Positions 7,919 through 22,198 of a stretch of DNA of 64,000 bases are shown in pieces. Source of the DNA: a virus (Duplodnaviria > Caudoviricetes); IMG/VR virus record IMGVR_UViG_3300032327_000792; one strand, given 5' to 3'. Position 1 is the stretch's first letter; every line of letters starts with the position of its first letter. Made by a program: the position numbers and the translations under genes. Below the pieces are notes generated by a model. That model was given only the letters and a program-made list of their open reading frames with translations. It did no database searches and was not told where the DNA came from.

Positions 7919-7922
7919 AATT

Positions 7923-8635: not shown

Positions 8636-8638
8636 ACC

Positions 8639-9481
8639 ATGAAAGCCTACATAATTTACCTTCCAGACCGTGAACACAGCGTAACGCACAGTGCGTACAT
8701 GTTGGAGACACTAAAGTCATATGGACTAGACGCTTACTTGCACAAAGGTGTACCCGGTGATCATGCGGTAAAACTTGCTGCCAGATCCAAAAAAACTCTG
8801 TATCCTTACAGCATTAAAAATCGCACCATCAACGACGCAGATCTTAAAAGACTAATTCGTCCTGAATTATACGAAGAATTCAAAAAAAGATATCACTACA
8901 CAATCATTGAACGTCAACTGATTGGCGAAAATCACATAGGCAAACTAAGTCGTCCTGGGGTAGTCGGATGTTTTTACAGTCATTATTCATTGTGGGAAAA
9001 ATGTGTTCAACTCGGCGAACCTATAATGATCTTTGAAGACGATGTTAAGTTTTATCGAGGTTGGAATCCTATATCGTTCACCGGTGTTTTAATATTGAGT
9101 CTTGGAAAATCAAGTTTTTTAACTGAGCCCAACAAAACTTATTTGGAAAATCCCACTGGTGTGCCACGTGCAGTACCATGGAGAAATTTCAGCATGCCCG
9201 GTGCCAGTGGATACGCTCTTACCCCAGACGCAGCTCTGGGCTTGATCAAGTTTTATAGACCTTATTGGTATCCTGCAGACAATGCTATCAATCAGTACAT
9301 TACACCCATGTACATACACAACTATATCATGGGCCGAAACACATTGCCCGAAGAAGGCAATATATCCATGACCAAGTCAAAGGATTGGAATCAAGCAATG
9401 GGGACTGAAATAGTCGACAATGACTACAAAGAACTGGTTATTACTGCATCAACCGATCCCGGCACCGAGATTGATCAATGA
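8639..9481 (+). CDS. glycosyltransferase family 25-like
   Basis: AYIIYL..R, GCFYSHY.LW, MIFEDD, PADN. Confidence 0.85.
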   Translation: MKAYIIYLPDREHSVTHSAYMLETLKSYGLDAYLHKGVPGDHAVKLAARSKKTLYPYSIKNRTINDADLKRLIRPELYEEFKKRYHYTIIERQLIGENHIGKLSRPGVVGCFYSHYSLWEKCVQLGEPIMIFEDDVKFYRGWNPISFTGVLILSLGKSSFLTEPNKTYLENPTGVPRAVPWRNFSMPGASGYALTPDAALGLIKFYRPYWYPADNAINQYITPMYIHNYIMGRNTLPEEGNISMTKSKDWNQAMGTEIVDNDYKELVITASTDPGTEIDQ

Positions 9482-10398
9482 AAGTAGGAATATTTTATAA
9501 CTCTATTAGCAATCCGGCTAAGTTTTCAAACAAAGTGATGTTAATGGACAACTTTCAAGCTGGAGTCATAAGTCAAGGCGATGAAGTAGTTGAATATAGA
9601 GAAAATACATTACCAGATCAGCCTCTGGATGCTGGCTTTGTATTGGGCTATACACTTGAAGATAACTTTAGAAAAAAAATTATCAACAGTTTAAAAGCTC
9701 AAAAAACTCCACAGGTGTTTGTGGACAGCAACATTTTACACTATGCAAGAAAAGAACACGAGTGGCATCGTTATAGTTTGAACAGTGTGTATCCCAACGA
9801 TGGTGCATATTTCTTTCAGGCATTAGATCGTTCTAAATGGACAACATACAGCCAATGGCATGGTGTTGAACTGCAACCTTGGAGAACTGGAGCCAACGGA
9901 CAACACATATTGATCCTGTGTCAGCGTCCCAAAGGTTGGAATATGTTTGGCAATGATCAGGATGCCTGGTTGGACAAGATGATAGACAAGATTCGCAAGA
10001 TTGAGCGTAAACGTCCAATTGTGGTTCGCATGCATCCGGGTGATGGTTCAAGATTTAAACAGATTGAAAAATTACAAAAAAGGTATGGTGCCAGTATCAA
10101 AATCTCCAACCAAGATAACATTAGAGAAGATTTGGTCAACTGTTGGTGCACTGTGGGCTACAACTCTACTCCCAATGTGATTGCTGCTATTGAAGGCGTG
10201 CCTGGATATATAGAGGATCCGCAACATAGTTGGGTTGCTGACGTGGCATTCACTGACCTTGCTCACTTACTACAGCCACCCTTGCCTGGGCGCAATGAGT
10301 GGATTCACAAAATTGCCAACATACACTGGAGCAATGAAGAAGTACGCACTGGTCAACTATGGTCGGCTATTAAGACGTATATTTCTGCTTCTCGTTGA
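9478..10398 (+). CDS. putative GT-B/capsule-polysaccharide-modification-like protein
   Basis: VVRMHP, TVGYNST...AAIEGVP; similar architecture to 11190-12023. Confidence 0.5.
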   Translation: MKVGIFYNSISNPAKFSNKVMLMDNFQAGVISQGDEVVEYRENTLPDQPLDAGFVLGYTLEDNFRKKIINSLKAQKTPQVFVDSNILHYARKEHEWHRYSLNSVYPNDGAYFFQALDRSKWTTYSQWHGVELQPWRTGANGQHILILCQRPKGWNMFGNDQDAWLDKMIDKIRKIERKRPIVVRMHPGDGSRFKQIEKLQKRYGASIKISNQDNIREDLVNCWCTVGYNSTPNVIAAIEGVPGYIEDPQHSWVADVAFTDLAHLLQPPLPGRNEWIHKIANIHWSNEEVRTGQLWSAIKTYISASR

Positions 10399-11167
10399 CA
10401 AAAACTTCTAGATCTTTTCTAGTACCTTTGGCAGTCCAGATATAACTGCTGGGTTGCATGTTCCAGTCAATGTATTCTGTTGGTAAATTTTCCCAACGAT
10501 ATTGCGGTACCAAGTCTGTCAACACGTCTTGATCAATTCCCCAATGTAAATTATCCAGTTCAATGTTGTTTTTTAATACAGCAACATACTGTTTTAAAAA
10601 TGCATAACCTTGGGTGTTGCCGGTTAGATACAAACCCCCGGCCAAAAATCTAGCCTTGCGTCCAGAGATATAGTGTATGTAAAAATCTTTGCTGTTGTCG
10701 AATTCTGGAAAACTTCTGCGCACAACAGCATCAATGTCTATGGCCAGCAATCGAGTGGTGGGTTGAATCAACTGTTGCAATCGAATAAATCTTGCAGAAG
10801 CAAAGTAGGTTCGTTGTATTCGCTGTTGTATGCTGGTATCACGGCCTTTGGTCATTGCAGTCAAAATTCTTTTGCGGCGATCTGCCATCTCTGGATCTGT
10901 AGGTACTGTTGCCCATTTCTCAGACGCTGTTTTAAACAACTCCAAAGGAACCTGCTCGTATGTGATACTGACACGTTGGATTGATCTACAATATGAAATT
11001 TGCTCTGGAGTAGGATTGTACAAGTGTAGATGTACACCAAACTGAGTATTTTTAAGCGCACTGCGGATCAATGCTGGACCGAATTCAGTGAAATAGTCGC
11101 AATCGCAGGCAACATAGATAAAGAATGATGGCTGGTCAAGGTTTCCGAGCAGTGGTGGAATAATCAT
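10370..11167 (-). CDS. nucleotide-diphospho-sugar transferase-like (GT-A)
   Basis: ASARF, LAIDIDAVV (DxD), WGIDQDVL, IWTAKG. Confidence 0.65.
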   Translation of the reverse strand: MIIPPLLGNLDQPSFFIYVACDCDYFTEFGPALIRSALKNTQFGVHLHLYNPTPEQISYCRSIQRVSITYEQVPLELFKTASEKWATVPTDPEMADRRKRILTAMTKGRDTSIQQRIQRTYFASARFIRLQQLIQPTTRLLAIDIDAVVRRSFPEFDNSKDFYIHYISGRKARFLAGGLYLTGNTQGYAFLKQYVAVLKNNIELDNLHWGIDQDVLTDLVPQYRWENLPTEYIDWNMQPSSYIWTAKGTRKDLEVFVNEKQKYTS

Positions 11168-11168
11168 A

Positions 11169-11180
11169 TTAAATATTTAA
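11169..11180. promoter_or_regulatory. palindromic bidirectional late promoter TTAAATATTTAA
   Basis: Perfect 12-bp palindrome that gives TAAATA on both strands between divergent starts 11167(-) and 11190(+). Confidence 0.6.
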
Positions 11181-11189
11181 CTATAAATT

Positions 11190-12023
11190 ATGCGTGTAAG
11201 TATTTTTGATCAGTATGGAGCTTTGAACAGTGCGCCAATCTTTGCCGCTATTCGTGCTGGTCTTGATCACATAGGTATTGAACATACCAGCATGGATAGC
11301 TCAGCCGATGTGGCTGTGATCTGGAGTCTGCTGTGGGCCGGACGAATGAAGCCCAATCAACAGATATGGGAACTGTACCGATCTACTGGGCGTCCTGTGA
11401 TTGTGGCAGAAGTAGGAATGTTGCGACGTGGCTTTACCTGGAAACTGGGCATCAACGGTACAGGGTTGACTGCTGACTATGGTCAAGAATTAATAGCCAA
11501 TCGTGCCAGTGCATTGGGACTCAGTACAAAACCTTGGAGCAACGCAGGATACAACATTGTGATTGCGTGTCAACGCAGTGACAGTGAGCAGTGGGTCGGA
11601 CAACCACCTACGGTTGCATGGTTGACAGAAACTGCACGCAAGATCAGACAATACAGTGACAAGCCCATGGTAATACGTCCGCATCCAAGACAGCGCATTG
11701 CCGACATTCCAGGTTGTGTTATTGAAAGCCCTCAACCTATTCCAGGCACCTACGACAGTTTTAATTATGATCAGTGTCTTAAAACAACATGGGCCGTGAT
11801 CAATCACAACTCAGGGCCTGGAGCTCAGGCCATTTTAAATGGTGTGCCGGCATTTGTTGGAGCCACAAGTTTGGCAGCGCCAGTGGGTAATGCAGACATT
11901 GCTGATATAGAAAATCCACTGCGTCCTGATAGAACACAATGGATTGAACAACTAGCGCACACTGAATGGACTATGCCAGAAATTGAATCTGGTATTCCAT
12001 TGTTGCGTTTATTGAAGCCCTAG
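11190..12023 (+). CDS. putative GT-B/capsule-polysaccharide-modification-like protein
   Basis: VIRPHPR, VINHNS.PG..AILNGVP, paralogous to 9478-10398. Confidence 0.5.
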   Translation: MRVSIFDQYGALNSAPIFAAIRAGLDHIGIEHTSMDSSADVAVIWSLLWAGRMKPNQQIWELYRSTGRPVIVAEVGMLRRGFTWKLGINGTGLTADYGQELIANRASALGLSTKPWSNAGYNIVIACQRSDSEQWVGQPPTVAWLTETARKIRQYSDKPMVIRPHPRQRIADIPGCVIESPQPIPGTYDSFNYDQCLKTTWAVINHNSGPGAQAILNGVPAFVGATSLAAPVGNADIADIENPLRPDRTQWIEQLAHTEWTMPEIESGIPLLRLLKP

Positions 12024-12767
12024 GTGAGACAAGCTCTTGTCGAGCCAAGACACAATCAATTCGTGTTGGCGTAGTTCCCCGTGACGCTGAACACATTCAT
12101 CCGCGGATTCGGGCAACAGTTTTCGATCAGCTAACTCATACCACGTGGTTGTTTTTGGATTCATCGGCATGTGAGAACTTTTGTACACCACTGCACTTAA
12201 CCATGGATTGTTTGACTCTTTTTTAAAAAATCCTGATCTACAATCCCACCCGGCAACCGCCAGCATATGAATCAAACTGACCATGGTGTGATGGTAATAC
12301 ACACCGTTGGGCTGATTGAACACTTGTTGTCTGGCTTGATAATTTGTTGTTTGTGGAACAACAATTGCCAACATGGCGCCATCACTGGCAATATTCCACC
12401 ATTTGCTTAGAGTTCCTATTGGATCTAGAGCATACTGGAAAGAATCATGACACCATAGCACATCAAACAATGTTTTCTGTTTGGGTATGATTGTGGTTTC
12501 AAAGTCCACGGATTGATATGTAATGTTTGAATATTTTTTTGCTATTGTCAACTGAGGGGCTAAATCGACTCCAATACAATCAATATTCAGCGGCTGAGGA
12601 GTGTCTTCTCTTGTGGTGCGAGTAGCCCACCATTCTAAATCTAAGCCAGAGCCACAACCTAGATCTACCAAGGTTCCGATACTGGCCATGAAATCGTCGT
12701 ATTCGTACAACATGTTCAACGTGTTTAAACTATGTGCGTGACTTTCTTCTGCGTTTCGAAATGTCAT
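12009..12767 (-). CDS. class I SAM-dependent methyltransferase (start MTFRN at 12767)
   Basis: LVDLGCGSG, FDVLWCHDSFQY; ATGA-coupled to uvsY. Confidence 0.85.
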   Translation of the reverse strand: MTFRNAEESHAHSLNTLNMLYEYDDFMASIGTLVDLGCGSGLDLEWWATRTTREDTPQPLNIDCIGVDLAPQLTIAKKYSNITYQSVDFETTIIPKQKTLFDVLWCHDSFQYALDPIGTLSKWWNIASDGAMLAIVVPQTTNYQARQQVFNQPNGVYYHHTMVSLIHMLAVAGWDCRSGFFKKESNNPWLSAVVYKSSHMPMNPKTTTWYELADRKLLPESADECVQRHGELRQHELIVSWLDKSLSHLGLQ

Positions 12768-13216
12768 ATTGTGATATCCTCCATTCCTGCTGTGCGTAAT
12801 CTCACAATGTGCCCCATTTGCCATTGTTTGGCATCTAACCCTTTGAGTATGCCCAGCCACTTGTTGCGTAACAGTGCTACTTCGTTGATAATGGTTTCAA
12901 AGTCAATGACTTCGTCTTCGCCGTCTACGTACTTTTCAGCATCGCGACTGGTCAGTGCTCTAGCATATGCTTCCAAATATTTTTGAAAGTGTCGACGACG
13001 AATTTTACGTAATTGTATATTGAGAAAGTTAAGCACCGCTTCAATTTCTTGTAACTGATTGAAACGATGCTCAGTGATACCCGGCAACGCAGAGATGTTT
13101 TTCTCTACCAAGCCACCTATTCTACAATCACGCTTGGCATCTCCTAACTCTCGTTCGTAGTGTTGAATAAAATCAGGAATGTTGCCCAACGATGCTACAA
13201 CTTTGCTATACCACAT
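12764..13216 (-). CDS. uvsY: UvsY-like recombination mediator protein
   Basis: Helical ~150 aa with LTSRDAEKYVDGEDEV and LKGLDAKQWQMGHIVRLR.AG.ED C-terminus typical of UvsY; near uvsX. Confidence 0.8.
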   Translation of the reverse strand: MWYSKVVASLGNIPDFIQHYERELGDAKRDCRIGGLVEKNISALPGITEHRFNQLQEIEAVLNFLNIQLRKIRRRHFQKYLEAYARALTSRDAEKYVDGEDEVIDFETIINEVALLRNKWLGILKGLDAKQWQMGHIVRLRTAGMEDITI

Positions 13217-14495
13217 AATTATCCATATATTGTTTTTCAATCTCTATAAGCCAAGGAAACAACTCTCGCCAGTTTGTGCCACGGCGTTGATCTTTTTCAT
13301 TTATGTATATTAACATTTTTTTGATTTCTTGCCAATCTCTTTGGTGATTAGCAATGCCCTTTCCTATACCTTCGATGTAGTTACAAATCACCTGATCCTC
13401 GTCAGTATCAATTGGCATGGCAGACACTATCTTTTGAAAATCTTCCTCAAACACACCAGGTCCAAAATGTTTGGGTATAAAATAAGATGGGTCTGGGGAT
13501 ATAGTTCCGCTATATAGACTTACATGACGAACCTGTCTCCACTCTTTTAATTTATGCATAAGTTCGGGCGCAGTTTTAATAGTCAGAGGACTAAAGACTT
13601 GATTCAATGCCAGTTTGATCCATTTTTGATCCAATAGATATCGAAAATTTTTCTCCCAGTGTACCAGGTCCAGTCCATATCTTACATATTCTTGTTGGGG
13701 GCCCCAACAATCAATACTGGCAAGAATTTGTAAACTTTTGAGTTTACGATTGATCAACAATTTCCTAATTTTAACAATGTACTTTTCTAACAATGCCGGC
13801 GGGATCATCAAATTAGAAACTATATTTAATTCACAATCTGCATTAGGAAACTGATCTACATAGTCTAAAATTTTGTCAAATTCTTTTTGAAAAAAAGGTT
13901 CTCCGCCTAGTATGTTCAGGCGGCGCAGATATTTAAACTCTTTTTCAAACCATTGTTGAAATGCAGGTAACAAATCTGTATAGCGAGGCTCCTCGACAAC
14001 CTCAAGAGCTGCGAATTCAATTTCCTGAATTTTAGATTGCCCAAAGCGACGATTTTCGTTGTTGATTGTACTACTCAGATCTGGAGAACAATACAAACAA
14101 CTTAGTTGACAGGTATTGTTTAAAAAAACTTCAACTACCACTGGTTTTATTTCTACAGCAGTAGAATTTTGATCTAATTCCCGAGGATACATATTTGGTA
14201 TGCTTAGATGCCACAATCGATCACTTACGCCACCAGCTGCCTCAATTTCTTTACAGTAATGGCATGTTGCTCCTTGTTTACCGCCGGGCCATTCGCCGGC
14301 TAACATTTTTTTTCTGTCTGCTATTTTTTCTGGAGTATTGTGGAAGTTATGAAAGTTTTCAGGAGTTAATTTACTTTCACTAGAGCGATAACACGACCTA
14401 GTGATACCAGAATTGAGTAGCAAGGTGCTCCAACTCCATTTGAGTTGGCAAGCGGTTTCAGTGTTAATAGGAAAGAATTTTTTTTCAGATGTCAT
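13206..14495 (-). CDS. radical SAM protein with an N-terminal twitch-like Cys region
   Basis: CQLSCLYC (CxxxCxxC), ILGGEPF, SIDCWG..QEYVRYG; N-terminal CQLKW...SCY...CHYC. Confidence 0.9.
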   Translation of the reverse strand: MTSEKKFFPINTETACQLKWSWSTLLLNSGITRSCYRSSESKLTPENFHNFHNTPEKIADRKKMLAGEWPGGKQGATCHYCKEIEAAGGVSDRLWHLSIPNMYPRELDQNSTAVEIKPVVVEVFLNNTCQLSCLYCSPDLSSTINNENRRFGQSKIQEIEFAALEVVEEPRYTDLLPAFQQWFEKEFKYLRRLNILGGEPFFQKEFDKILDYVDQFPNADCELNIVSNLMIPPALLEKYIVKIRKLLINRKLKSLQILASIDCWGPQQEYVRYGLDLVHWEKNFRYLLDQKWIKLALNQVFSPLTIKTAPELMHKLKEWRQVRHVSLYSGTISPDPSYFIPKHFGPGVFEEDFQKIVSAMPIDTDEDQVICNYIEGIGKGIANHQRDWQEIKKMLIYINEKDQRRGTNWRELFPWLIEIEKQYMDNYVV

Positions 14496-15640
14496 TGTGT
14501 TTGATTGACCCAGTCTATAAATGAGGTTGGAAATATCTGTAACGATAAATTTCTTCTTCTTGCAAATTCTTTAATGTAAGTTACAAAATTTAATTTCTGT
14601 TGCTTACTGTATCCACTGTCTAGTGCTGTTTTAATCAACGAATCGTTCCATTGATACTTAGTTAATTTTAGATTGGCAACGGAGTCTGAATCCATTACTC
14701 CAACAGCAAGATAATCAGGATCGTTACAAAACTGTACTGTGTTGTTGTCTTGTCCAAACTGATCTTCGAATTGTTGATATCCAAATAGTGTGAGATTAGT
14801 CAGAGTGACGGAAAATCTATACGGTATACCATGTTGTTTGATAATCTCCATATTTTTCAAAAAGTTCTGATAAGAATTTCCATACCGAACAAACTCATAC
14901 AAATCACCAGTGGATTCCCCGCTGATTACTAAACTTATATTGCTTTTTAATTTGTCAAGAATGGCAGAAAATCTCACTGGGTTAACTCCTAATCCTGTGA
15001 AAATTTCTATCGGACTTGAAAACTTATTTGTTAGTTCTTCTAGCCCGTTATACAAAAAAGGCTCTCCGCCGGTAATAGATATTGACCTTAGATTTTTGAG
15101 TTGCTCAGTTGAATCTAAAATGACTTTGACTACTTGACTGTTTTTAAGCTGTTTCTGCCCAAGAGCTTCAATGATACGATCTTCAATATTGATTGTGTAT
15201 CGTGCATCATTTAGATAAGATCCATTGGTCTGTATGTCTTTGTACCATGCGTTGCTATATTGTTTGCAACAATAAACACAAGTCATATTGCAGGCTGTAC
15301 TCAGTACAATGTTTAATACCTCGGGCTCGGCATAGACTGCATTGTGTGTTTGAACTTGACCATTCATGCTCGTTCGACGACTTACAGCCAACTGATCTTC
15401 TGCGGCCCAACAATTGGCTTCACATGAAGCCACACGAACTCCATTGAGCATATTTTCTCGATCTTGTACTAATTCCGGAGTATTAAATATTTTTTCTGGA
15501 TTTTGTTCAAGCCATTTTGTATTAATTGTGTAAGGACTGGCAGAACAACATGATGAAAGATTTTTACGTTCTAAATTTACAGTCAACCACCAAAATTTTT
15601 GATTACAATAAAAATCTTTAATAATCGTTTTCGTCTTCAT
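14492..15640 (-). CDS. radical SAM protein with an N-terminal twitch-like region (start about 15640)
   Basis: CNMTCVYC, ITGGEPF, YEFVRYG; N-terminal YCNQKF...SCC...CEANC. Confidence 0.9.
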   Translation of the reverse strand: MKTKTIIKDFYCNQKFWWLTVNLERKNLSSCCSASPYTINTKWLEQNPEKIFNTPELVQDRENMLNGVRVASCEANCWAAEDQLAVSRRTSMNGQVQTHNAVYAEPEVLNIVLSTACNMTCVYCCKQYSNAWYKDIQTNGSYLNDARYTINIEDRIIEALGQKQLKNSQVVKVILDSTEQLKNLRSISITGGEPFLYNGLEELTNKFSSPIEIFTGLGVNPVRFSAILDKLKSNISLVISGESTGDLYEFVRYGNSYQNFLKNMEIIKQHGIPYRFSVTLTNLTLFGYQQFEDQFGQDNNTVQFCNDPDYLAVGVMDSDSVANLKLTKYQWNDSLIKTALDSGYSKQQKLNFVTYIKEFARRRNLSLQIFPTSFIDWVNQTQ

Positions 15641-15872
15641 CATACTCGTCTTCGTAGTCTTCCTCGTCGTCCTCGTCGGCATGATCATCAAGATACTGTT
15701 TGAGTGCTTGCTTGACTTCGCTGTCGCTTTTAAACGCAGATTTGATTTCTTCGACACTGACGTCGTTGTCAATCAATACACTGACCAATGCTTCGGCAGC
15801 TTCGGCACGATCCATGCCGTTGACGTAACGTTTGATTTCTTGCCAAACTTCATTTGCTAATTCTACTGCCAT
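15618..15872 (-). CDS. small acidic hypothetical protein directly downstream of uvsX
   Basis: 84 aa with D/E-rich tail DDHADEDDEEDYEDEYDEDENDY. Confidence 0.75.
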   Translation of the reverse strand: MAVELANEVWQEIKRYVNGMDRAEAAEALVSVLIDNDVSVEEIKSAFKSDSEVKQALKQYLDDHADEDDEEDYEDEYDEDENDY

Positions 15873-15873
15873 A

Positions 15874-16938
15874 TTATGCTTCTCCTTCTAAAGTTTCTTC
15901 AGGAGTACTTACCTCAGTGTTTTGATTTTTGAAATCAGCAATAATTTTGTCCAGACAACCATCGTCGTTGGCTTCCCACTTTTTGCGGAATTGTTTGATA
16001 ATTTCGCCATCACTGGTAACAAATACTAGGCTATTGCCTTCTTTCTTGAGTAGACCTTTTTTCTCGGCCAAGTCGGTCATGCCTGAGTATGGACTCATTC
16101 CTGTGGTGTAAGGAATTTTAACTTGTACTCCTTCAAACGGTTTGGCATAACGTGTTTTCATGATCTTACAGGCTGCTCTGATGCCATTGACTTCTGAAAC
16201 TTTGTTGCCATCTTCGTCTTCTTTGAGTTTGAGTTTTTTCATAGCAACCACAATACTTGATGCATAGATAAAACCTTGACCTCCTGAAATCTTGTCATCT
16301 GGATCAAACATGTCCTGACTTGCATATGTATGGTTAGTACATACCATTCCAATATTATAACTGCCAAACATGTTGACACAGTTACGAACCAGGGCAGTAA
16401 GTGCTTTGGGTTTGCGGCCCAAGTCACCTTTCATTTCGCCTGCTTCAAACTGGTTGACATCAGTGGGAGTCAACAACATACCCAATGAGTCAATCACAAA
16501 TAATACCTTTGGACGTTCGCCATCCGGTAACGCTTTGTAATCACTCATGAATGTGGAAATCGTTTTGGCCACATCGTCGATCATGGCCATTGATAGTTTG
16601 AGCAACTTGCCTTCGCTGGTATCTACTCCCAAGGCCTGCAACCATGCTTCGTCTAGGGCATTTTCACTGTCTACCAACACAACAAAGATACCTTGCTCTT
16701 GTGCGTGTTTGACAATGTTGCCACTGCAGATGTAACTCTTGCCTGCACCAGAATCTCCCGCAAACACAGTAACCTTGCCCATTGGAATACCTTTGTTAAA
16801 GTCTCCCGAGATCAAATAGTTCAAGGCAAAATTGCCTGTTGAGATCCAGTCTGTTGGATCGTTAAATCCAATACTAAGACCGTCGATTGATTTTGTAATT
16901 TCCTTGCGGAACTTTGATACGTCAAATGGTTTTGCCAT
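15874..16938 (-). CDS. uvsX: UvsX/RecA-like recombinase (start MAKPFD at 16938)
   Basis: FAGDSGAGKS Walker A, VDSENALD, FVIDSLG, TNHTY, SGGQG...YASS. Confidence 0.95.
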   Translation of the reverse strand: MAKPFDVSKFRKEITKSIDGLSIGFNDPTDWISTGNFALNYLISGDFNKGIPMGKVTVFAGDSGAGKSYICSGNIVKHAQEQGIFVVLVDSENALDEAWLQALGVDTSEGKLLKLSMAMIDDVAKTISTFMSDYKALPDGERPKVLFVIDSLGMLLTPTDVNQFEAGEMKGDLGRKPKALTALVRNCVNMFGSYNIGMVCTNHTYASQDMFDPDDKISGGQGFIYASSIVVAMKKLKLKEDEDGNKVSEVNGIRAACKIMKTRYAKPFEGVQVKIPYTTGMSPYSGMTDLAEKKGLLKKEGNSLVFVTSDGEIIKQFRKKWEANDDGCLDKIIADFKNQNTEVSTPEETLEGEA

Positions 16939-16939
16939 G

Positions 16940-17872
16940 TTAATTTTCCTTAATAAAATTGTATAACTTTTCTGCATACTGTTGATGTTGCTTGACTCCA
17001 GGATGCAAATTGTCTGTTCCTAAATCTATAAACTTTATAGTATTTCCATTTATAATTAATCCCTGTGTTAAATCTATAAAATTGGGTAAGTCTTTTAATG
17101 CTATGCTGACCCAAGCAAAATCTAAAATATTTGCAATGTATAATTTTACTTTTATTTTTTGACAAAAATTTACAACTTGTAAAATTTCTCTCAATGAAGT
17201 TAATACTTGGGTCTCGCTTTCAAAATAATCAAGTGACCAATATTGATTTTCTTTGTCTACTGTGAAATAATCACTAATAGGTACTGGATTAAAATTCCAA
17301 TTTTTTGATATTGCAACCCTAGAAACGTTAGTTAATCCCCAAACTACTATATCTCCAGATCGTATATCGGATCTCAACAACTGATCAGCAGCCCAAAAAA
17401 TTGAGGATCCTCCTTGTGATAATGTTATCTCGGGTAAATTTAAATAGTTGGCCAGTAAACTTCCCCATCTATCATTGTAATCAACACCGTTGCCATGCGT
17501 TACAGAACACCCAGCAGTCCATAAAACTGGATTGTTATCAGTCCTTGTATTTTTTAAAAAATTAAAATCTTTTTTCCAAGTAAAAAAATTAATCTTACCA
17601 GGGTGTCTTGCAAGTTCGTTAAACAGTCTCCCATATGAAAAACAATTATCATTTGTAATATTAATATCCTCAGTGAGGTTAACCACTACAATTTCACTAG
17701 CATTGCTACATGCCACACTGATGTTTTCACAAGATAGATCTTCTACCGATGTGTGACAATTTACATCGGTGCTGCTAGCAACAATTTTATCTATGTTATG
17801 TCTGTCAAGCAGTATAGAATCGTTACCATTCCAGTCATAATTAACGGTTGAAATATATAATTTATTAATCAT
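16940..17872 (-). CDS. SGNH/GDSL-like hypothetical protein
   Basis: AGCSVTHG (block I-like), GGSS, C-terminal DNLHPG (DxxH); visibly AT-rich. Confidence 0.55.
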   Translation of the reverse strand: MINKLYISTVNYDWNGNDSILLDRHNIDKIVASSTDVNCHTSVEDLSCENISVACSNASEIVVVNLTEDINITNDNCFSYGRLFNELARHPGKINFFTWKKDFNFLKNTRTDNNPVLWTAGCSVTHGNGVDYNDRWGSLLANYLNLPEITLSQGGSSIFWAADQLLRSDIRSGDIVVWGLTNVSRVAISKNWNFNPVPISDYFTVDKENQYWSLDYFESETQVLTSLREILQVVNFCQKIKVKLYIANILDFAWVSIALKDLPNFIDLTQGLIINGNTIKFIDLGTDNLHPGVKQHQQYAEKLYNFIKEN

Positions 17873-19014
17873 TTTAATTTGTATAACTCTGTAAAAATCT
17901 TGCTGCTGTCTATTCCACGTCGTTGATCCATTGCGGCTAACTGTTCAAAAGATCCAGCTAAATCTTTTTCAAACGGTTGCTCTATATAACTCAACATATT
18001 TTTGTAGCTGTCCTCGAGCAAATAACCCGGTTGGTCAGTGATTCTTTGTTGTATTTGATACTTTATTGATTGTAACACATGTTCTGGCAAATGTCTAATA
18101 TTTAGGTATTCTGGAGTCAATAATGCACCAATGATAAAACTGTTGTTATGAAACCCTAAATTTTTCAAATAATCCACACAGTCAAACACGGAACGATGAT
18201 TTAACAGGAACCAAAGCATGTTAAAACTAATTTTATGGTTTAGTTGTTTTATCTTTTGCAAATTTTCTAAAAAATCCACCCAACGGCCGCCATATCTGAT
18301 GTATTCAAATGCATCGGTAACAGTTTCCACACTGACGGTCCAATGTACATTGGGAAATTCACAAATTCGATCAAATACCTGTGTGTCTGTTTTACTCAAA
18401 TTGGTGTTGATACGTAGGTTTACATTAGGATTGGTTTTTTGCAACAGTTCCAATAGTTCTAAATTTTCTTTCATCAACAACGGTTCGCCGCCGGCCATGT
18501 ACACATGTTTGAGTGTGGATGCATGATCAAAGATATATTGTTTAAAACTTTCCAGTTGATCAAGGCCAGGGCGCACTATTTCTTCGTTTAATTCGTCGGC
18601 CCAGCGACTGCTAAATTCGGGGCTACAGTACACACAAGAGAAATTGCACAAATTAGTCCACCGCACATCAATGGTATGCAAGTCATGTTGATTGGGTTGG
18701 TACGTATCCAATGGTATTTTTTTAAGTTCTTTTATGTAAAAAATTCTGTCACTGATAATATCAAACCCAGTTTTATTGCCTTCAAGATCATAACAAGTGT
18801 GGCAGTTTTTTCCAGGTTGATTGGTCAGCATGCGTTGTTGAGTATCAAGATTGGTGGTGCCGTGTAGAATTTCTTTGATAGTGTTATCTTTGAGATTACC
18901 TATTGTTCCTGAACTACGAATACAATTTTTTACTTTGCCGTCAACATTGTACATCAGTCCAGTCCATGGCATGGGGCAAAAATTACGATTGGTCAATACG
19001 TCTTTTGGAGTCAT
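17869..19014 (-). CDS. N-terminal twitch-domain radical SAM protein
   Basis: FCPMPW...DGKVKNC...CHTC, then CNFSCVYC, MAGGEPL, EYIRYG. Confidence 0.9.
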   Translation of the reverse strand: MTPKDVLTNRNFCPMPWTGLMYNVDGKVKNCIRSSGTIGNLKDNTIKEILHGTTNLDTQQRMLTNQPGKNCHTCYDLEGNKTGFDIISDRIFYIKELKKIPLDTYQPNQHDLHTIDVRWTNLCNFSCVYCSPEFSSRWADELNEEIVRPGLDQLESFKQYIFDHASTLKHVYMAGGEPLLMKENLELLELLQKTNPNVNLRINTNLSKTDTQVFDRICEFPNVHWTVSVETVTDAFEYIRYGGRWVDFLENLQKIKQLNHKISFNMLWFLLNHRSVFDCVDYLKNLGFHNNSFIIGALLTPEYLNIRHLPEHVLQSIKYQIQQRITDQPGYLLEDSYKNMLSYIEQPFEKDLAGSFEQLAAMDQRRGIDSSKIFTELYKLK

Positions 19015-19016
19015 TG

Positions 19017-19556
19017 TTACAACGGTCCCAGTGATATATCTGGAATTGTTAGCCCATTATTGTTGGCAAGATCCAGCAAGTTTACCAATGTTTTTGCCCA
19101 GTTATTGACATCAGCTGCTGGTGGAACAGTTTTGTCTAAACTGGTAGCTATGTTACCAGGACGAACTATGGTAATTTTTACACCAAGTCGACGGTTTCGT
19201 ATTTGTCTTACCGATTCCTCAAGTGTTACTTTTTGTATTCTATATTGATCCATGTCTAACCCCGGTAGCGTTGATACTGGATCTTGAGTCATCATAGTGC
19301 TGATCACAATGATATGTTTTTTTGTTCCTTGCCAACGTTGAGCCATTTCAAACAACAACTCAGTTTGTGCATATCCAGCTTGTGCATTGTTAACAAAAAT
19401 ATCGCATGGCTCAATTTGATCACAAATCTTGGGTGTATTCCTAATATTATTGCCTTCGCGTTTACTCAAACCAATGATCTCATAACCGTTGAGAGAGTAT
19501 TCTTGTGCAAGAGCTTGTCCTATACCCGCAGTATGTCCAGTGATTGCTATTTTCAC
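19017..19556 (-). CDS. short-chain dehydrogenase/reductase
   Basis: ITGHTAGIG Rossmann motif, FVNNA, YRIQK (YxxxK). Confidence 0.85.
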   Translation of the reverse strand: MKIAITGHTAGIGQALAQEYSLNGYEIIGLSKREGNNIRNTPKICDQIEPCDIFVNNAQAGYAQTELLFEMAQRWQGTKKHIIVISTMMTQDPVSTLPGLDMDQYRIQKVTLEESVRQIRNRRLGVKITIVRPGNIATSLDKTVPPAADVNNWAKTLVNLLDLANNNGLTIPDISLGPL

Positions 19557-20431
19557 GTGATTCCTCTCAGTTGTTTTTGTTTGCTTATGTATGCCTCTCT
19601 AGCATCGACATTGGCATTATCAACCGACAATTCAAACGGCTGTTTAAGATAAGCGTAACTGTGATCAATACTATGTTCCTTGGCAAATGCCTGTATATTG
19701 GGTAAGTCCGTGACATTCAATATACTAACTGTGGTCCATAAGTTCAACTTAATAGGCATTGTTTTATATGTCATTAAGTTATTGTAAAAAGTATCCCACT
19801 TGATAGGCCAACGCATGAATTCGTGTACTGGGCCAATGCCATCACAACTTACAGTCACAGTGACTTCTATTCCCTTATCGACAATATCTGTTAACTCATT
19901 GAGTACTACATTACAATTAGTGTTGAGCCTGAGAGTCCGCAAATTTGGTGGCAAGTTGGCCAATAATTGTTTGTAATTTTTACTGTAACTTGGCTCACCG
20001 CCGTTGATATCTAAATGTACAATACGGTCTTGCGGTAAATTCCAAAAGCGACTACTGTTGTTTACAATAGGAAAAGTTTTGCCGACAAGGGCCCCGATTC
20101 GTGTACTACATCCAGGATTACACGTTTGACAAGCAGCATTACATATGTTATCTAATACTCCGCCTACTTGTAAATAGTCTTTTTGTGTGGTTTGATTGTT
20201 CAATTGTGTGGCATATCCCCGTATGCTGTCGGGCTCAGTTTCCTGGCATCTTGCACATTCACTGGGCCATTGATCTGCTAGCATTGTTGCTTTGATTTTT
20301 GACAGCCATTCACTTGATTCCATCTGTTCCAGTGATTCAAATTGTGGTGGCGATACCATGTGCCCGCAACGACTCACTGTTCCGTTGGGATTAAATCTTA
20401 CAAAGTGATCAAGTCTTGGGCAATGCATCAA
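19553..20431 (-). CDS. radical SAM protein with an N-terminal twitch-like region
   Basis: HCPRL...RCGH...CARC, then CNAACQTC, INGGEPS, EFMRWP. Confidence 0.85.
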   Translation of the reverse strand: MMHCPRLDHFVRFNPNGTVSRCGHMVSPPQFESLEQMESSEWLSKIKATMLADQWPSECARCQETEPDSIRGYATQLNNQTTQKDYLQVGGVLDNICNAACQTCNPGCSTRIGALVGKTFPIVNNSSRFWNLPQDRIVHLDINGGEPSYSKNYKQLLANLPPNLRTLRLNTNCNVVLNELTDIVDKGIEVTVTVSCDGIGPVHEFMRWPIKWDTFYNNLMTYKTMPIKLNLWTTVSILNVTDLPNIQAFAKEHSIDHSYAYLKQPFELSVDNANVDAREAYISKQKQLRGIT

Positions 20432-21080
20432 TGATATGTTGTGTTTTTTTAAAAATTAAATCATACAGATTTGGATGTTTGAGTTGTATGTCGGTTACCA
20501 ACTCATTGACTGTCACTGACTGACCTATTCGGTCAAGCAATAATTGGTCTAGATAAAAATATAAATCAAGTTTCTTCCAGTTAAAATCGTTGATACTTTC
20601 TAAAAATTTACTTGATGGAGGATCAACCTCTGCACGAAAATTCATGTTAGCTAACCCGTCGATATCACTGATTGAACATAACTTTAACTGAGTTTCTGGG
20701 TGTAGATATTTATTGAGATTTAACAACCAAAAGAATTGTGGGCAATAGTGCCGATTCAAAAACAAATAATTATTCACAAACCATAAAATGGTTTTGTGAT
20801 CTAGCTCAGGAAAATCTCTGTTGAGATGCTGTAGATAAGTGTTAACTCCGCTGATAAATCTTTCTTTTGGTGCCCGTAAAAAAACAGTTATGGGCTGACG
20901 TATTTTTGTAATACAATCATTGGTTAAAATTTCCCAGTCAGTTCGATAACCTTTTTGAATTTGTACAAAAAATGAACTACTACCGTTTTTCATTATAGGA
21001 AAAACGTATTGCTGTGAGGAACCCAAATAGATCACCTCACAGCGTTCTGGAAAGATAGTGTTATCTATCTCACTAAACAT
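20409..21080 (-). CDS. sulfotransferase-fold protein
   Basis: PIMKNGSSS (5'-PSB-like) and FLRAPKERFISG (3'-PB-like) PAPS-binding motifs. Confidence 0.55.
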   Translation of the reverse strand: MFSEIDNTIFPERCEVIYLGSSQQYVFPIMKNGSSSFFVQIQKGYRTDWEILTNDCITKIRQPITVFLRAPKERFISGVNTYLQHLNRDFPELDHKTILWFVNNYLFLNRHYCPQFFWLLNLNKYLHPETQLKLCSISDIDGLANMNFRAEVDPPSSKFLESINDFNWKKLDLYFYLDQLLLDRIGQSVTVNELVTDIQLKHPNLYDLIFKKTQHIIDALPKT

Positions 21081-21083
21081 TGA

Positions 21084-22070
21084 TTACTTCTGTTGACGTG
21101 CTCTAATCATTGCCAAAATATCTTCGGCTTTGTTGGCACCTGCTGCTGGCGCAGACACCGGAGCAGTCGCTGCCACTGGTTCGTCATCATCAAACGAACT
21201 TGTCACTGGTGCGGCTTTGGTCACTGGTGCTGGTGTGTCTTCGTCATGATGAACCACTGAGGCAGTGCCACCTGCGGGTGCTGTAACACCGGCTGGACGG
21301 AAGTACTGACCCCAACGCTCTGTGTCATATGGTTGACCATCCACTGATGCTTCGAACATTTCTTTCATGACCTTGAGCTCAACGTCTGAGGGCTTTTTAG
21401 GTAAGAATGTTGATAGATCAAACAAACCGTGTGCTTCAATGGCTGCTTGTTCTGCTTCAGTCAATGCTGACTCTTTGCGAGCCCACTTTGAAGTTGAATA
21501 GTCTGCGTAGCCACCTTTGGCTGTTTTTGTGATACGGAAGTCTAGACCACGCATTAAGTCTGTTGGTAGTTCTTCCAGTTCTGGATCCATCAATGCTGAC
21601 TTGATAGTGGCAAAAATTTGTGGACCAATGATGAATCTACGAATTGGATTCTCTGGCGTCTTGTCTTCGTTCATTGGGTTTTCACGTACAAAGCCTTGGA
21701 AAATGTATGAACGTTTTTTCCAATACTTACGACCCATTTCTTCTAGTGATTTGTCTTTGAACCAAGTGCGTACTTCTGCTAGGATTGGACAAGCTTCTTG
21801 CCACATTTCAACGCAGGGTACTTGTACCATGACTTGTTTGGAATCCATTTCGCCTTTGATTCCGTTGAATGGCAAACGAATCATTGCTCGTTCTGCCCAG
21901 AAAAATGTGTTCTTTGGATTTGCGTCTGGTAAGAAGCGTAGTGTTGCTGATGAACCTTCTTCCATATTCCAGTGTGCGTAAATTGAATTATCGCCGCCTG
22001 ATGATTGACCGCCTGGTTTATTTGTTTCTGTAGCTGCTAGTCTTGCTCTGATTTCTGCTAATGATGCCAT
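21084..22070 (-). CDS. gp32: gp32-like single-stranded DNA-binding protein
   Basis: LRFLPD, CPIL, G.DFRITK...GYADYSTS.W, and an acidic C-tail ending EDILAMIRARQ. Confidence 0.95.
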   Translation of the reverse strand: MASLAEIRARLAATETNKPGGQSSGGDNSIYAHWNMEEGSSATLRFLPDANPKNTFFWAERAMIRLPFNGIKGEMDSKQVMVQVPCVEMWQEACPILAEVRTWFKDKSLEEMGRKYWKKRSYIFQGFVRENPMNEDKTPENPIRRFIIGPQIFATIKSALMDPELEELPTDLMRGLDFRITKTAKGGYADYSTSKWARKESALTEAEQAAIEAHGLFDLSTFLPKKPSDVELKVMKEMFEASVDGQPYDTERWGQYFRPAGVTAPAGGTASVVHHDEDTPAPVTKAAPVTSSFDDDEPVAATAPVSAPAAGANKAEDILAMIRARQQK

Positions 22071-22169
22071 TTTAAGTTGCCTTTCTAAGTTGTATAAAAT
22101 GTATGCCTATCTATTGTATAGATCTTACGTTGCCTGTGACACAATGTAAAAAGCGTATATCACTGTAGT

Positions 22170-22198
22170 AGTATATACGCCTTTTTAGGTAGCGTCAA
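22170..22198 (-). promoter_or_regulatory. sigma70-type promoter TTGACG-17-TATACT for the gp32 operon
   Basis: -35 at 22198-22193, -10 at 22175-22170. Confidence 0.75.

What the first reader, a model, noticed from the sequence alone, without database searches (positions are those of the whole stretch)
12009..22198. One ~10-kb operon interleaves gp32-uvsX-uvsY with four radical SAM enzymes, SDR, sulfotransferase-like, SGNH-like and methyltransferase genes
Seen in sequence: from the TTGACG-17-TATACT promoter, 12 minus-strand genes abut or overlap (for example ATGA at 17869-72, 14492-95, 12764-67, and GTGA at 19553-56). All four radical SAM proteins carry the Cys-rich twitch-like module N-terminal to CxxxCxxC, the reverse of the usual order. 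Established knowledge: N-terminal-twitch radical SAM proteins form a family of unknown function known mainly from uncultured aquatic sequences, and twitch enzymes BtrN and NeoN oxidise or epimerise sugar-like substrates. Inference: radical SAM + SDR + PAPS-dependent transferase + SGNH acyl enzyme + methyltransferase form a tailoring kit for an unusual sugar that feeds the adjacent GT island. The alternative, suggested by co-transcription with recombination genes, is DNA base hypermodification or repair.
Basis: partly seen in the sequence, partly recalled or inferred. Interest (0 to 1): 0.75.

Follow-up and report, generated by a model that had tools for sequence, protein, structure and literature searches.

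The report
Phage recombination operon carrying sugar-tailoring enzymes
An uncultured giant phage has slotted a conserved set of unstudied iron-sulfur "radical SAM" enzymes, a small reductase and a sulfotransferase-like protein between its DNA-recombination genes; in relatives the same operon runs on into sugar-activating and sugar-transferring genes, so it probably tailors an unusual sugar, though the substrate is untested.

Summary
Twelve minus-strand genes (22070 to 12009) are packed with no gap over 3 nt, behind a sigma70-like promoter that is conserved in relatives. All four radical SAM (rSAM) proteins best match NCBIfam NF033640. Their N-terminal four-Cys module aligns to the C-terminal twitch domain of BtrN.

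New here:
- Cultured relatives have TerL-gp32-UvsX-UvsY contiguous, so the enzymes are AT-richer insertions into a core module.
- Only the quartet sulfotransferase-like/rSAM/mini-SDR/rSAM is fixed (43 of 44 loci). The SGNH-like gene, the two rSAMs before uvsY and the methyltransferase are optional.
- In 22 of 28 relatives the operon continues, on the same strand right after uvsY or the methyltransferase, into a cytidylyltransferase-cupin fusion, followed by GT8 in 14 loci. In this window that block (5304-12023) is inverted.
- Relatives carry 12-16 NF033640 matches per record.

Best reading (about 0.6): a sugar or polyol-nucleotide tailoring pathway. DNA modification and peptide modification remain possible. 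The substrate is untested.

This scan noted the same cassette in at least six other genomes, and one follow-up there reached a similar reading.

The parts
22170..22198 (-). sigma70-like promoter TTGACG-17-TATACT upstream of gp32
   Evidence: A match of at least 10/12 is present in 22 of 27 distinct upstream regions of relatives, against a shuffle mean of 2.4.
21084..22070 (-). gp32-type single-stranded DNA-binding protein
   Evidence: phrog_1192 at 2.3e-68. Pfam gp32 scores 24.5 bits, just under its cut-off.
20409..21080 (-). o223, sulfotransferase-like protein (core of the cassette)
   Evidence: Invariant K31-N32-G33 and R69-x-P71-x-x-R74-x-x-S77. Pfam Sulfotransfer_2 hits 4 of 17 orthologues, best E 0.0015. 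The AF2 model has pLDDT 85. Sulfotransferases top the AFDB search (prob 0.97, E 1e-2) and the VIA search (Z 4.8-3). All matches are weak.
19553..20428 (-). rsA, short N-terminal-twitch radical SAM protein (core)
   Evidence: NF033640 at 140.8 bits, under the 170 cut-off but the best hit. The four N-terminal Cys and CxxxCxxC are present. It sits in 44 of 44 loci that cover the slot.
19017..19556 (-). 179-aa mini short-chain dehydrogenase/reductase (core)
   Evidence: Pfam Epimerase and adh_short. TGxxxGIG, NNAQ, S86, Y105xxxK109 and P133-G134 are invariant or nearly so in 16 orthologues.
17869..19014 (-). rsB, N-terminal-twitch radical SAM protein (core)
   Evidence: NF033640 at 258 bits. Pfam SPASM matches residues 13-75 and Radical_SAM residues 119-267. 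The AF2 model has pLDDT 95.4.
16940..17872 (-). o310, SGNH-hydrolase-like protein (accessory)
   Evidence: Invariant G121-C-S123, G155, G179-x-T181 and D287-x-x-H290 in 6 orthologues. There is no Pfam hit. It is present in 3 of 44 loci.
15874..16977 (-). UvsX recombinase (probable start at ATG 16938)
   Evidence: phrog_97 at 1.2e-67 and RecA at 3e-14. 60-68% identical to jumbo phages 2.275.O, Phosso, CBB and GAP32.
15618..15872 (-). o84, small acidic protein of the ancestral recombination block
   Evidence: Conserved between UvsX and UvsY in most loci. A small ORF occupies the same place in phage Phosso.
14492..15643 (-). rsC, N-terminal-twitch radical SAM protein (accessory)
   Evidence: NF033640 at 147.8 bits. 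An rSAM sits between UvsX and UvsY in only 23 of 55 loci.
13206..14495 (-). rsD, N-terminal-twitch radical SAM protein (accessory)
   Evidence: NF033640 at 209.7 bits. An ATGA overlap joins it to rsC.
12764..13216 (-). UvsY recombination mediator
   Evidence: phrog_231 at 1e-13.
12009..12767 (-). class I SAM-dependent methyltransferase (accessory)
   Evidence: Pfam Methyltransf_11 over its cut-off, Methyltransf_12, _23, _25 and _31 just under theirs. It follows UvsY in 23 of 35 loci.
5304..6065 (+). cytidylyltransferase-like + cupin fusion, displaced here by an inversion
   Evidence: Pfam CTP_transf_like plus MannoseP_isomer. 77% identical to the G001 gene that abuts MT in the operon. It lies on the same strand right after UvsY or MT in 22 of 28 loci.
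6062..6748 (+). GT8 glycosyltransferase that follows the fusion
   Evidence: Pfam Glyco_transf_8. It lies directly after the fusion on the operon strand in 13 of the 14 loci that have it; L028 has GT8 but no fusion.
5304..12023 (.). glycan island, inverted relative to loci L002 and L004
   Evidence: The gene order and relative strands match L002/L004 (CTcupin, GT8, m213, MT24, FkbM in L004, GT25, p306, m265, p277). uvsY lies on the opposite side and strand.

Best explanation
The stretch is one tightly packed transcription unit, probably expressed early, of an uncultured jumbo phage. Its ancestral block TerL-x-gp32-UvsX-o84-UvsY has been invaded by AT-richer accessory enzyme genes.

The fixed insert, between gp32 and uvsX, has four genes:
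- a sulfotransferase-fold protein;
- two radical SAM enzymes with a circularly permuted (N-terminal) twitch domain;
- a minimal NAD(P)-dependent SDR.

Optional inserts add an SGNH-like enzyme, one or two further N-twitch radical SAM enzymes before uvsY, and a methyltransferase after it.

In most relatives the same operon then continues into a cytidylyltransferase-cupin fusion and a GT8 glycosyltransferase. In this window that continuation has been inverted and lies at 5304-12023.

Most likely mechanism (every step is inferred):
1. The nucleotidyltransferase-cupin enzyme activates a sugar phosphate or polyol phosphate.
2. The twitch radical SAM enzymes abstract a carbinol hydrogen and give keto or deoxy-keto intermediates, as BtrN does by oxidation and AprD4 by dehydration. 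The auxiliary cluster serves as electron conduit.
3. The mini-SDR reduces the ketone, for a net epimerisation or deoxygenation.
4. The sulfotransferase-like protein, the SGNH-like enzyme and the methyltransferase decorate hydroxyl groups.
5. GT8, GT25 and the other transferases install the product on an unknown acceptor, such as host LPS core, a virion protein or something else.

The neighbourhood with recombination genes is positional rather than functional.
For: - Packing and overlaps.
- A promoter conserved far above shuffles.
- Cultured relatives have SSB-UvsX-UvsY contiguous with nothing inserted.
- The inserted genes have 31-40% GC against 42-46% for gp32, UvsX, o84 and UvsY.
- The quartet is present in 43 of 44 loci.
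- The cytidylyltransferase-cupin fusion is 77% identical to the gene abutting MT in the complete relative G001.
- That fusion lies on the operon strand 15-31 nt after UvsY, or directly after MT, in 22 of 28 loci. GT8 lies next to it in 13 of the 14 loci that carry GT8.
- The family's N-terminal module aligns to the twitch domain of BtrN, a sugar-type dehydrogenase, with all four Cys matched.
- All SDR catalytic motifs are invariant.
- The radical SAM plus NADPH-reductase pair AprD4/AprD3 deoxygenates an aminosugar (PMC5461906).
- Relatives G002 and G003 have GT8/GT25/GT2 next to the cassette.
- G001 has five GDP_Man_Dehyd-family genes.
- Neighbours of cellular N-twitch arrays include PGM/PMM, DegT, an NAD-dependent epimerase, a carbamoyltransferase and a UbiA-GT fusion.
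Against: - No enzyme here has a characterised close homologue.
- The sulfotransferase-fold evidence is weak (Z below 5, HMM E 0.0015).
- The radical SAM core is closest in sequence to the peptide-modifying enzyme SkfB.
- Foldseek gives only generic radical SAM cores, with TM about 0.4.
- Six of 28 loci show no cytidylyltransferase-cupin gene within reach.
- G001 lacks GT2, GT8 and GT25 matches and has only one GT1, 100 kb away.
- In this window the sugar genes are no longer on the operon strand.
- Cellular contexts are heterogeneous: P450, an LpxO-like hydroxylase, a beta-lactamase-family protein.
Confidence: 0.6

Rival explanations
1. DNA or nucleotide hypermodification, or radical-based DNA repair. 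The quartet is co-expressed with gp32/UvsX/UvsY because it acts on replicating DNA or on dNTP pools. One version has the tailored sugar itself transferred to a DNA base, as T4 glucosylates hydroxymethylcytosine.
For: - The quartet sits strictly between gp32 and uvsX under a conserved early-type promoter.
- The sulfotransferase fold is related to P-loop kinases, and an adenylate kinase appears among the weak VIA matches.
- From general knowledge: radical SAM enzymes take part in thymidine hypermodification in phages ViI and M6, and T4 DNA glucosyltransferases are early genes.
- A non-specific nuclease is encoded nearby.
Against: - Cultured relatives with the same recombination block lack the insert.
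- The complete relative G001 has no TGT/DpdA match and only one ThyA-family gene. It scores 352 bits over the full profile, as a canonical thymidylate synthase would.
- The conserved downstream partners are a cytidylyltransferase-cupin fusion and a GT8 of LPS type.
- No cellular N-twitch neighbourhood showed DNA-metabolism genes.
- Spore photoproduct lyase was not among the 50 best fold matches.
- All cassette enzymes are mildly acidic, pI 5.0-7.8. This is weak evidence.
Confidence: 0.17
2. Protein or peptide modification. Like most SPASM/twitch radical SAM enzymes, the N-twitch paralogues cross-link, epimerise or oxidise residues of a phage or host protein or a small precursor peptide. The sulfotransferase-like protein would then act as a tyrosine or serine sulfotransferase.
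For: - The best sequence match of the radical SAM core is the RiPP (modified-peptide) maturase SkfB, at 3.8e-14. CteB, SuiB and anSME are among the best fold matches.
- One homologue is fused to TPR repeats.
- Each phage record carries 12-16 NF033640 matches, as in diversifying systems.
- An LpxO/Asp-hydroxylase-family gene lies beside a bacterial array.
Against: - No RRE/PqqD domain, no leader-peptidase or export genes and no obvious precursor ORF lie next to the quartet.
- o84 belongs to the ancestral block and is also present in phage Phosso, which lacks the enzymes.
- The conserved neighbours are sugar-activating and sugar-transferring genes.
- The twitch module matches BtrN best.
Confidence: 0.13
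3. There is no single pathway. The inserted genes are independent accessory genes that accumulated in permissive gaps between core genes, each with its own unrelated substrate. The tight packing reflects only phage genome economy.
For: - The content of the UvsX-UvsY slot and the post-UvsY slot varies (0-2 radical SAM genes; MT present or absent), and o310 is rare.
- N-twitch radical SAM genes are scattered at about eight places in G001.
- The inserted genes are AT-richer.
Against: - The four-gene order o223-rsA-SDR-rsB is kept in 43 of 44 loci, across lineages whose rsB is only 60-85% identical to this window's.
- The downstream cytidylyltransferase-cupin/GT8 pair is also retained.
- Natural fusions of two N-twitch modules show that neighbouring paralogues work together.
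Confidence: 0.1

Closest known systems
NCBIfam NF033640, N_Twi_rSAM (twitch domain-containing radical SAM protein)
   Same: It is the best family hit for all four proteins, and rsB and rsD exceed the curated cut-off. The architecture is the same: a four-Cys module, then CxxxCxxC and GGEP.
   Different: The family has no known function and I found no literature on it. rsA and rsC score under the cut-off. rsA is a short form that matches only profile positions 12-335 of 398.
BtrN (2-deoxy-scyllo-inosamine dehydrogenase), the twitch radical SAM prototype; PDB 4m7s/4m7t
   Same: The family profile's positions 8-89 align to BtrN residues 165-251 with all four Cys in register (domain E 8.6e-5). By general knowledge these Cys bind BtrN's auxiliary [4Fe-4S] cluster. 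BtrN's substrate is sugar-like.
   Different: The domain order is reversed: the twitch precedes the radical SAM core. The cores are only weakly similar. An extra helical C-terminal domain of about 130 aa is present. Activity is untested.
AprD4/AprD3, a radical SAM diol dehydratase with an NADPH-dependent reductase partner (apramycin C3' deoxygenation; PMC5461906)
   Same: The logic is a radical SAM enzyme next to a small NAD(P)H reductase acting on an aminosugar. This is the model for the rsA-SDR-rsB triad.
   Different: No detectable specific homology was tested or found. It is an analogy of pathway logic only.
T4-type gp32-UvsX-UvsY module of the jumbo phages Vibrio phage 2.275.O, Sinorhizobium phage Phosso, CBB, GAP32 and Atu_ph07
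   Same: UvsX is 60-68% identical. In 2.275.O and Phosso, whose flanks I read, the order is also TerL-x-SSB-UvsX-(small ORF)-UvsY.
   Different: In 2.275.O and Phosso nothing lies between these genes. Among 50,697 phage records, only RsoM2USA and two weak Vibrio phage hits showed N-twitch-like radical SAM genes.
Marine T4-like environmental viral genome with 12 radical SAM genes plus Fe-S assembly genes (Nishimura et al. 2017, PMC5332604)
   Same: It is an uncultured aquatic T4-like phage with about a dozen radical SAM genes. The relatives here carry 12-16 NF033640 matches.
   Different: That paper treats them as Fe-S clients without subfamily, cassette structure or function. I did not compare the sequences.
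Carbohydrate sulfotransferases (Pfam Sulfotransfer_2; heparan sulfate 3-OST, 2-OST and NDST; StaL)
   Same: o223 keeps a PKxGxT-like loop (K31-N-G-S-S-S) and an RxPxxRxxS motif, and its model ranks sulfotransferases first in two fold searches.
   Different: The matches are weak (Z 4.8, TM below 0.5, HMM E 0.0015). At 223 aa it is compact. PAPS binding is untested.

Membership tests
NF033640 N_Twi_rSAM | HMM score at or above the curated cut-off of 170 bits | tested here: met
   rsB scores 258.1 and rsD 209.7 bits. rsC (147.8) and rsA (140.8) fall below the cut-off but have this family as their best hit by far.
NF033640 N_Twi_rSAM | Cys-rich twitch-like module N-terminal to the CxxxCxxC radical SAM motif | tested here: met
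   C13, C31, C71, C74 and then C123xxxC127xxC130 are invariant in all four proteins. In 51 family members C31 is nearly invariant and the others invariant. Pfam SPASM matches residues 13-75 of rsB.
Twitch domain (truncated SPASM, one auxiliary cluster; Grell, Goldman and Drennan 2015) | Homology to a solved twitch domain, with the cluster-ligating Cys conserved | tested here: met
   The profile aligns to BtrN residues 165-251 with all four Cys aligned. That these Cys ligate the cluster in BtrN is from general knowledge.
Twitch domain (truncated SPASM, one auxiliary cluster; Grell, Goldman and Drennan 2015) | Position C-terminal to the radical SAM core | tested here: not met
   The module is N-terminal in all members examined. 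This is a permuted variant.
Twitch domain (truncated SPASM, one auxiliary cluster; Grell, Goldman and Drennan 2015) | Actually binds an auxiliary [4Fe-4S] cluster | not testable with these tools
   This needs reconstitution with EPR or Moessbauer spectroscopy, or a structure.
Radical SAM superfamily | CxxxCxxC motif, GGE SAM-binding motif and partial TIM barrel | tested here: met
   Pfam Radical_SAM scores 66.2 bits for rsB and 49.1 for rsC, but only 18.6 bits (under the cut-off) for rsD and gives no hit for rsA. GGEP is invariant. The AF2 model has pLDDT 95.4 and matches MoaA, anSME, BlsE and viperin cores at probability 1.00.
Classical short-chain dehydrogenase/reductase | TGxxxGxG, NNAG, and catalytic Ser plus YxxxK | tested here: met
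   T6-G7...G11-I12-G13, N57-A58-Q59, S86 and Y105xxxK109 are invariant or nearly so in 16 orthologues. Pfam Epimerase exceeds its cut-off. At 179 aa it is unusually short.
PAPS-dependent sulfotransferase (Sulfotransfer_2-like) | 5'-phosphosulfate-binding loop (PKxGxT) and 3'-phosphate-binding RxxxxRxxS motif on a P-loop-like fold | tested here: inconclusive
   The motif-like residues are invariant and sulfotransferases top the fold searches. But Z is at most 4.8 and the Foldseek E-value at best 1e-2. Pfam is hit by only 4 of 17 orthologues, at E 0.0015 or weaker.
SGNH/GDSL hydrolase | Blocks I (GDS), II (G), III (GxND) and V (DxxH) | tested here: inconclusive
   GCS, G155, GxT and D287xxH290 are invariant in 6 orthologues. 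There is no HMM hit and no structure was made. The Atlas gives only a Lipase_GDSL lead, on 15% of the members of a cluster ranked 72nd.
T4-type recombination module (gp32, UvsX, UvsY) | All three families present and syntenic | tested here: met
   phrog_1192 at 2.3e-68, phrog_97 at 1.2e-67 and phrog_231 at 1e-13. The order is the same as in cultured jumbo phages.

The most novel reading that the evidence does not exclude
The conserved quartet (sulfotransferase-fold protein, two permuted-twitch radical SAM enzymes, mini-SDR), together with the downstream nucleotidyltransferase-cupin and GT8 genes, makes a radical-tailored and possibly sulfated sugar. That sugar is attached to the phage's own DNA during replication. 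This would be a new kind of glycosyl DNA hypermodification, and would explain why the genes are welded into the gp32-uvsX-uvsY operon under an early promoter.
Probability: 0.08. Interest if true: 0.92.

Novelty: new variant of a known kind. Interest (0 to 1): 0.6.

Why it matters
N-terminal-twitch radical SAM proteins form a very large family: 3,593 clusters at 50% identity reach E <= 1e-10. I found no assigned chemistry and no literature for them. They are almost absent from cultured phages, yet these uncultured jumbo phages carry 12-16 NF033640 matches per record.

This cassette offers the cleanest handle on the family so far:
- a four-gene unit fixed across lineages whose rsB is only 60-85% identical to this window's;
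- a minimal reductase partner;
- a conserved physical link to a sugar or polyol nucleotidyltransferase and a glycosyltransferase.

Together these narrow the search for a substrate to a short, testable list. Finding the product would assign a function to thousands of orphan enzymes. It would also show what these phages spend a dozen oxygen-sensitive Fe-S enzymes on: cell-surface remodelling, virion glycans or DNA.

Tried and rejected
- Megablast of the 10-kb stretch against 50,697 phage records gave no match.
- No whole genome is held for the window.
Co-transcription and an rsC-rsD complex could therefore not be examined.
- The search for related loci with the four-paralogue alignment failed because it has no conserved stretch.
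- A profile of o223 against PDB sequences gave nothing meaningful. Foldseek of o223 against PDB gave no match at E <= 0.001.
- Foldseek of the rsB model gave only generic radical SAM cores, so it carries no substrate hint.
- Three distant N-twitch members looked up by identity lie on short contigs that look viral (HNH, thioredoxin, further rSAM genes) and have uninformative neighbours.
- The genes flanking the five-gene N-twitch array in G001 are almost all without Pfam hits.
- Long homologues of 790-1106 aa are tandem duplications of the same module, one with TPR repeats. They are not fusions to a substrate-revealing domain.
- The T4 late-promoter motif TATAAATA occurs once in the window, which is not above chance.
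- No inverted repeats above chance level flank the inverted island.
- A GDP-mannose dehydratase gene directly after uvsY, noted by this scan in another genome, was not found next to the cassette in 25 related records.
- Literature searches for the family, and for radical SAM genes in jumbo phages, found nothing specific.
- The idea that the cassette depends on this window's particular GT island was rejected. G001 keeps the cassette without GT2, GT8 or GT25 matches; of the island genes, only the cytidylyltransferase-cupin gene was shown to recur there.

Full report
WHAT IS THERE

Between 22070 and 12009 the minus strand carries twelve ORFs. With the most plausible start codons no intergenic gap exceeds 3 nt.
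- Some automatic starts are too long. rsC most likely begins at ATG 15643/15640, UvsX at 16938, UvsY at 13216, the methyltransferase at 12767 and rsA at 20428.
- The quoted promoter TTGACG-17-TATACT is at 22198-22170. Promoter-like sites in the region as a whole are not above chance (41 against 34.8 +/- 5.4).
- This one site, however, is conserved. Of 27 distinct gp32-upstream regions in related contigs, 22 hold a match of at least 10/12 and 9 a match of at least 11/12. Shuffles give means of 2.4 and 0.2. Most read TTGACA-17/18-TATACT, 60-150 nt before the ATG.
- Co-transcription is therefore a strong inference from packing and a conserved promoter, but it was not observed.

IDENTITIES

The recombination genes are secure: gp32 (phrog_1192, 2.3e-68), UvsX (phrog_97, 1.2e-67; RecA 3e-14) and UvsY (phrog_231, 1e-13).

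All four radical SAM (rSAM) proteins have NCBIfam NF033640 (N_Twi_rSAM) as their best hit. rsB scores 258 and rsD 210 bits, over the 170 cut-off. rsC scores 148 and rsA 141 bits, under it.
- They share four invariant Cys (13, 31, 71 and 74 in rsB) ahead of C123xxxC127xxC130 and GGEP. The same holds in 51 diverse family members.
- A profile of those 51 sequences, searched against PDB sequences, aligns its N-terminal positions 8-89 to residues 165-251 of BtrN. That is BtrN's C-terminal twitch domain, and all four Cys are in register (domain E 8.6e-5). It aligns more weakly to the C-terminal auxiliary domains of SkfB and 8vpo.
- The radical SAM core matches SkfB best, at 3.8e-14.
- The 'reversed order' claim is thus supported by homology, not only by Cys counting.
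- The AF2 model of rsB is confident (pLDDT 95.4). It resembles solved structures only through the generic radical SAM core (TM about 0.4: SkfB, MoaA, CteB, anSME, BlsE, viperin), so the fold gives no substrate.

The other enzymes:
- The 179-aa SDR keeps TGxxxGIG, NNAQ, Ser86, Y105xxxK109 and PG in 16 orthologues.
- o223 has no significant HMM hit of its own. Its orthologues keep a K-N-G-S-S-S loop and an RxPxxRxxS motif, and four of 17 touch Pfam Sulfotransfer_2 (best E 0.0015). Its model (pLDDT 85) puts sulfotransferases first in AFDB (probability 0.97, E 1e-2) and in an exhaustive PDB alignment (Z 4.8-3.0, nearly all of the first 13 rows). I read it as sulfotransferase-like, not as proven.
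- o310 keeps GCS, G, GxT and DxxH in the order of SGNH blocks I, II, III and V but has no HMM support.
- The last gene is a class I SAM methyltransferase.

COMPARATIVE ANATOMY

rsB has 177 relatives in IMG/VR, including contigs of 357, 213 and 183 kb. UvsX is 60-68% identical to cultured jumbo phages (Vibrio phage 2.275.O, Phosso, CBB, GAP32, Atu_ph07).
- In 2.275.O and Phosso the order is TerL, one ORF, SSB, UvsX, (small ORF), UvsY, with nothing between. The enzymes are therefore insertions into a conserved core block.
- GC content agrees. The inserted genes have 31-40% GC, against 42-46% for gp32, UvsX, o84 and UvsY.
- Among 44 loci that span gp32 to UvsX, 43 hold o223-rsA-SDR-rsB in that order. 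Three also have o310.
- Among 55 loci that span UvsX to UvsY, 32 have no radical SAM gene there and 23 have one or two.
- The methyltransferase follows UvsY in 23 of 35 loci.
- This window therefore shows the maximal configuration. Only the quartet is fixed.

THE LINK TO SUGAR GENES

In the complete relative G001 (356,865 bp, CheckV 100%) the gene abutting the methyltransferase is a CTP_transf_like + mannose-6-P-isomerase-type cupin fusion. It is 77% identical to window 5304-6065, which lies on the plus strand.
- Of 28 loci with at least 2.5 kb after UvsY, 22 have this fusion on the operon strand. It lies 15-31 nt after UvsY, or directly after the methyltransferase. In 14 loci a GT8 gene is also present, directly after the fusion in 13 of them.
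- In the closest relatives (L002, L004) the order after UvsY is fusion, GT8, three minus-strand genes, GT25, p306, m265, p277. That is exactly the window's 5304-12023 block, but with uvsY on the other side and strand.
- The window's 'adjacent GT island' is therefore the inverted continuation of the operon.
- The nucleotidyltransferase half resembles ethanolamine-phosphate and glycerol-3-phosphate cytidylyltransferases and an LPS-core enzyme. It is about 50% identical to cyanophage genes annotated in the same way.
- The rest of the island is lineage-specific. G001 has no match to GT2, GT8 or GT25 and one GT1 100 kb away, although it has five GDP_Man_Dehyd-family genes.

WIDER FAMILY

- The three large related records carry 16, 12 and 14 NF033640 matches, most of them over the cut-off. 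These include tandem arrays of five or six.
- A phmmer search of 1.84 billion cluster representatives finds 3,593 clusters at E <= 1e-10. Proteins of 790-1106 aa in that list are tandem fusions of two modules, one with TPR repeats.
- Cultured phages almost lack the family. RsoM2USA has two copies and two Vibrio phages give weak hits.
- Bacterial homologues exist on large chromosomal contigs, notably in Bdellovibrionia, where one locus has about ten radical SAM genes in a row.
- Neighbours of the bacterial genes include PGM/PMM, DegT, an NAD-dependent epimerase, a carbamoyltransferase, a UbiA-glycosyltransferase fusion, P450, a methyltransferase and an LpxO-like hydroxylase. None is a DNA-metabolism gene or a RiPP (modified-peptide) export or leader gene.
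- I found no paper on the family. The nearest published observation is a marine T4-like viral genome with 12 radical SAM genes (PMC5332604).

MECHANISM

I commit to a sugar or polyol-nucleotide tailoring pathway, at about 0.6. Every step is inferred.
1. The nucleotidyltransferase-cupin enzyme makes an activated donor.
2. The permuted-twitch radical SAM enzymes generate keto or deoxy-keto intermediates, as BtrN does by oxidation and AprD4 by dehydration.
3. The mini-SDR reduces them, as AprD3 does for AprD4 (PMC5461906). The net result is epimerisation or deoxygenation.
4. The sulfotransferase-like protein, the SGNH-like enzyme and the methyltransferase decorate the product.
5. GT8, GT25 and the other transferases install it on an unknown acceptor.

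The interleaving with recombination genes is best explained by insertion into permissive junctions of a strongly expressed early operon.

Rivals:
- DNA or nucleotide modification (0.17). For it: the position and the early promoter. Against it: the absence of DpdA, the lack of any ThyA-family gene beyond one canonical-looking ThyA in G001, and the sugar partners.
- Peptide or protein modification (0.13). For it: SkfB-like cores. Against it: no RRE domain, precursor or export genes.
- Unrelated accessory genes (0.10). Against it: the fixed four-gene order.

RELATION TO EARLIER NOTES OF THIS SCAN

The same cassette was noted in at least six other genomes, and one follow-up there reached a similar 'sugar-like, substrate unknown' reading. 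A follow-up on another part of this genome describes a glycosyltransferase-rich operon with six N-twitch radical SAM genes.

I used these as leads only. The cytidylyltransferase-cupin lead was tested here and holds. The gmd-after-uvsY lead was not reproduced in my 25 records.

Noticed in passing
window 22072-22140 (minus strand, gp32 leader): The leader between the promoter and the gp32 ATG holds two AGGCAAC repeats plus an AGGCATA. Orthologous leaders keep 2-3 (T)AGGCAAC copies even though they are otherwise divergent. The motif occurs 20 times in the window against 10.3 +/- 3.4 expected. It may be an operator for gp32 translational autoregulation or a phage-specific regulatory box.
   Followed up: partly
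window 5304-12023: The whole glycan island is inverted relative to its arrangement in the closest relatives L002 and L004, where it follows uvsY on the operon strand. No flanking inverted repeats above chance were found.
   Followed up: yes
window 4454-5530 (-) versus 5124-6065 (+): The long minus-strand ORF (358 aa, TTG start, no family) overlaps the real cytidylyltransferase-cupin gene, whose true start is ATG 5304 by homology. The minus ORF is probably shorter than listed, or spurious at its 5' end.
   Followed up: partly
L085 8202-14752 (G001:318202-324752): A tandem array of five N-twitch radical SAM genes (405-460 aa) lies in the complete 357-kb relative. It is preceded by a non-twitch radical SAM gene and by eight ORFs with almost no Pfam hits, one of them DUF6071.
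   Followed up: partly
L111 3731-17583 (Bdellovibrionia MAG, 917-kb contig): A bacterial chromosome carries at least seven, probably about ten, radical SAM genes in a row. At least two are N-twitch type, and an Asp/Arg (LpxO-family) hydroxylase gene lies next to them.
   Followed up: partly
L022 1316-3822: The TerL match is split into two pieces about 935 nt apart in this relative. This suggests an intron, intein or homing-endonuclease insertion in the terminase gene.
   Followed up: no
L101 4349-5347, 10105-11058 and 18613-19527 (G001:184-200 kb): The complete relative encodes DctP-type and TctC-type periplasmic solute-binding proteins, plus AhpC and CMD-family redox genes just downstream of the operon. 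These are unusual cargo for a phage.
   Followed up: no
window 25915-26619 (-): A DNA/RNA non-specific endonuclease (Endonuclease_NS, 2.6e-39) lies directly upstream of the large terminase gene.
   Followed up: no
L152 4772-8329 (Ralstonia phage RsoM2USA genes 202 and 204): This is the only cultured phage found with clear N-twitch-type radical SAM homologues (24% identity over 96% of rsD, E 3e-21). All neighbouring genes are annotated as hypothetical. It is a possible experimental model.
   Followed up: partly
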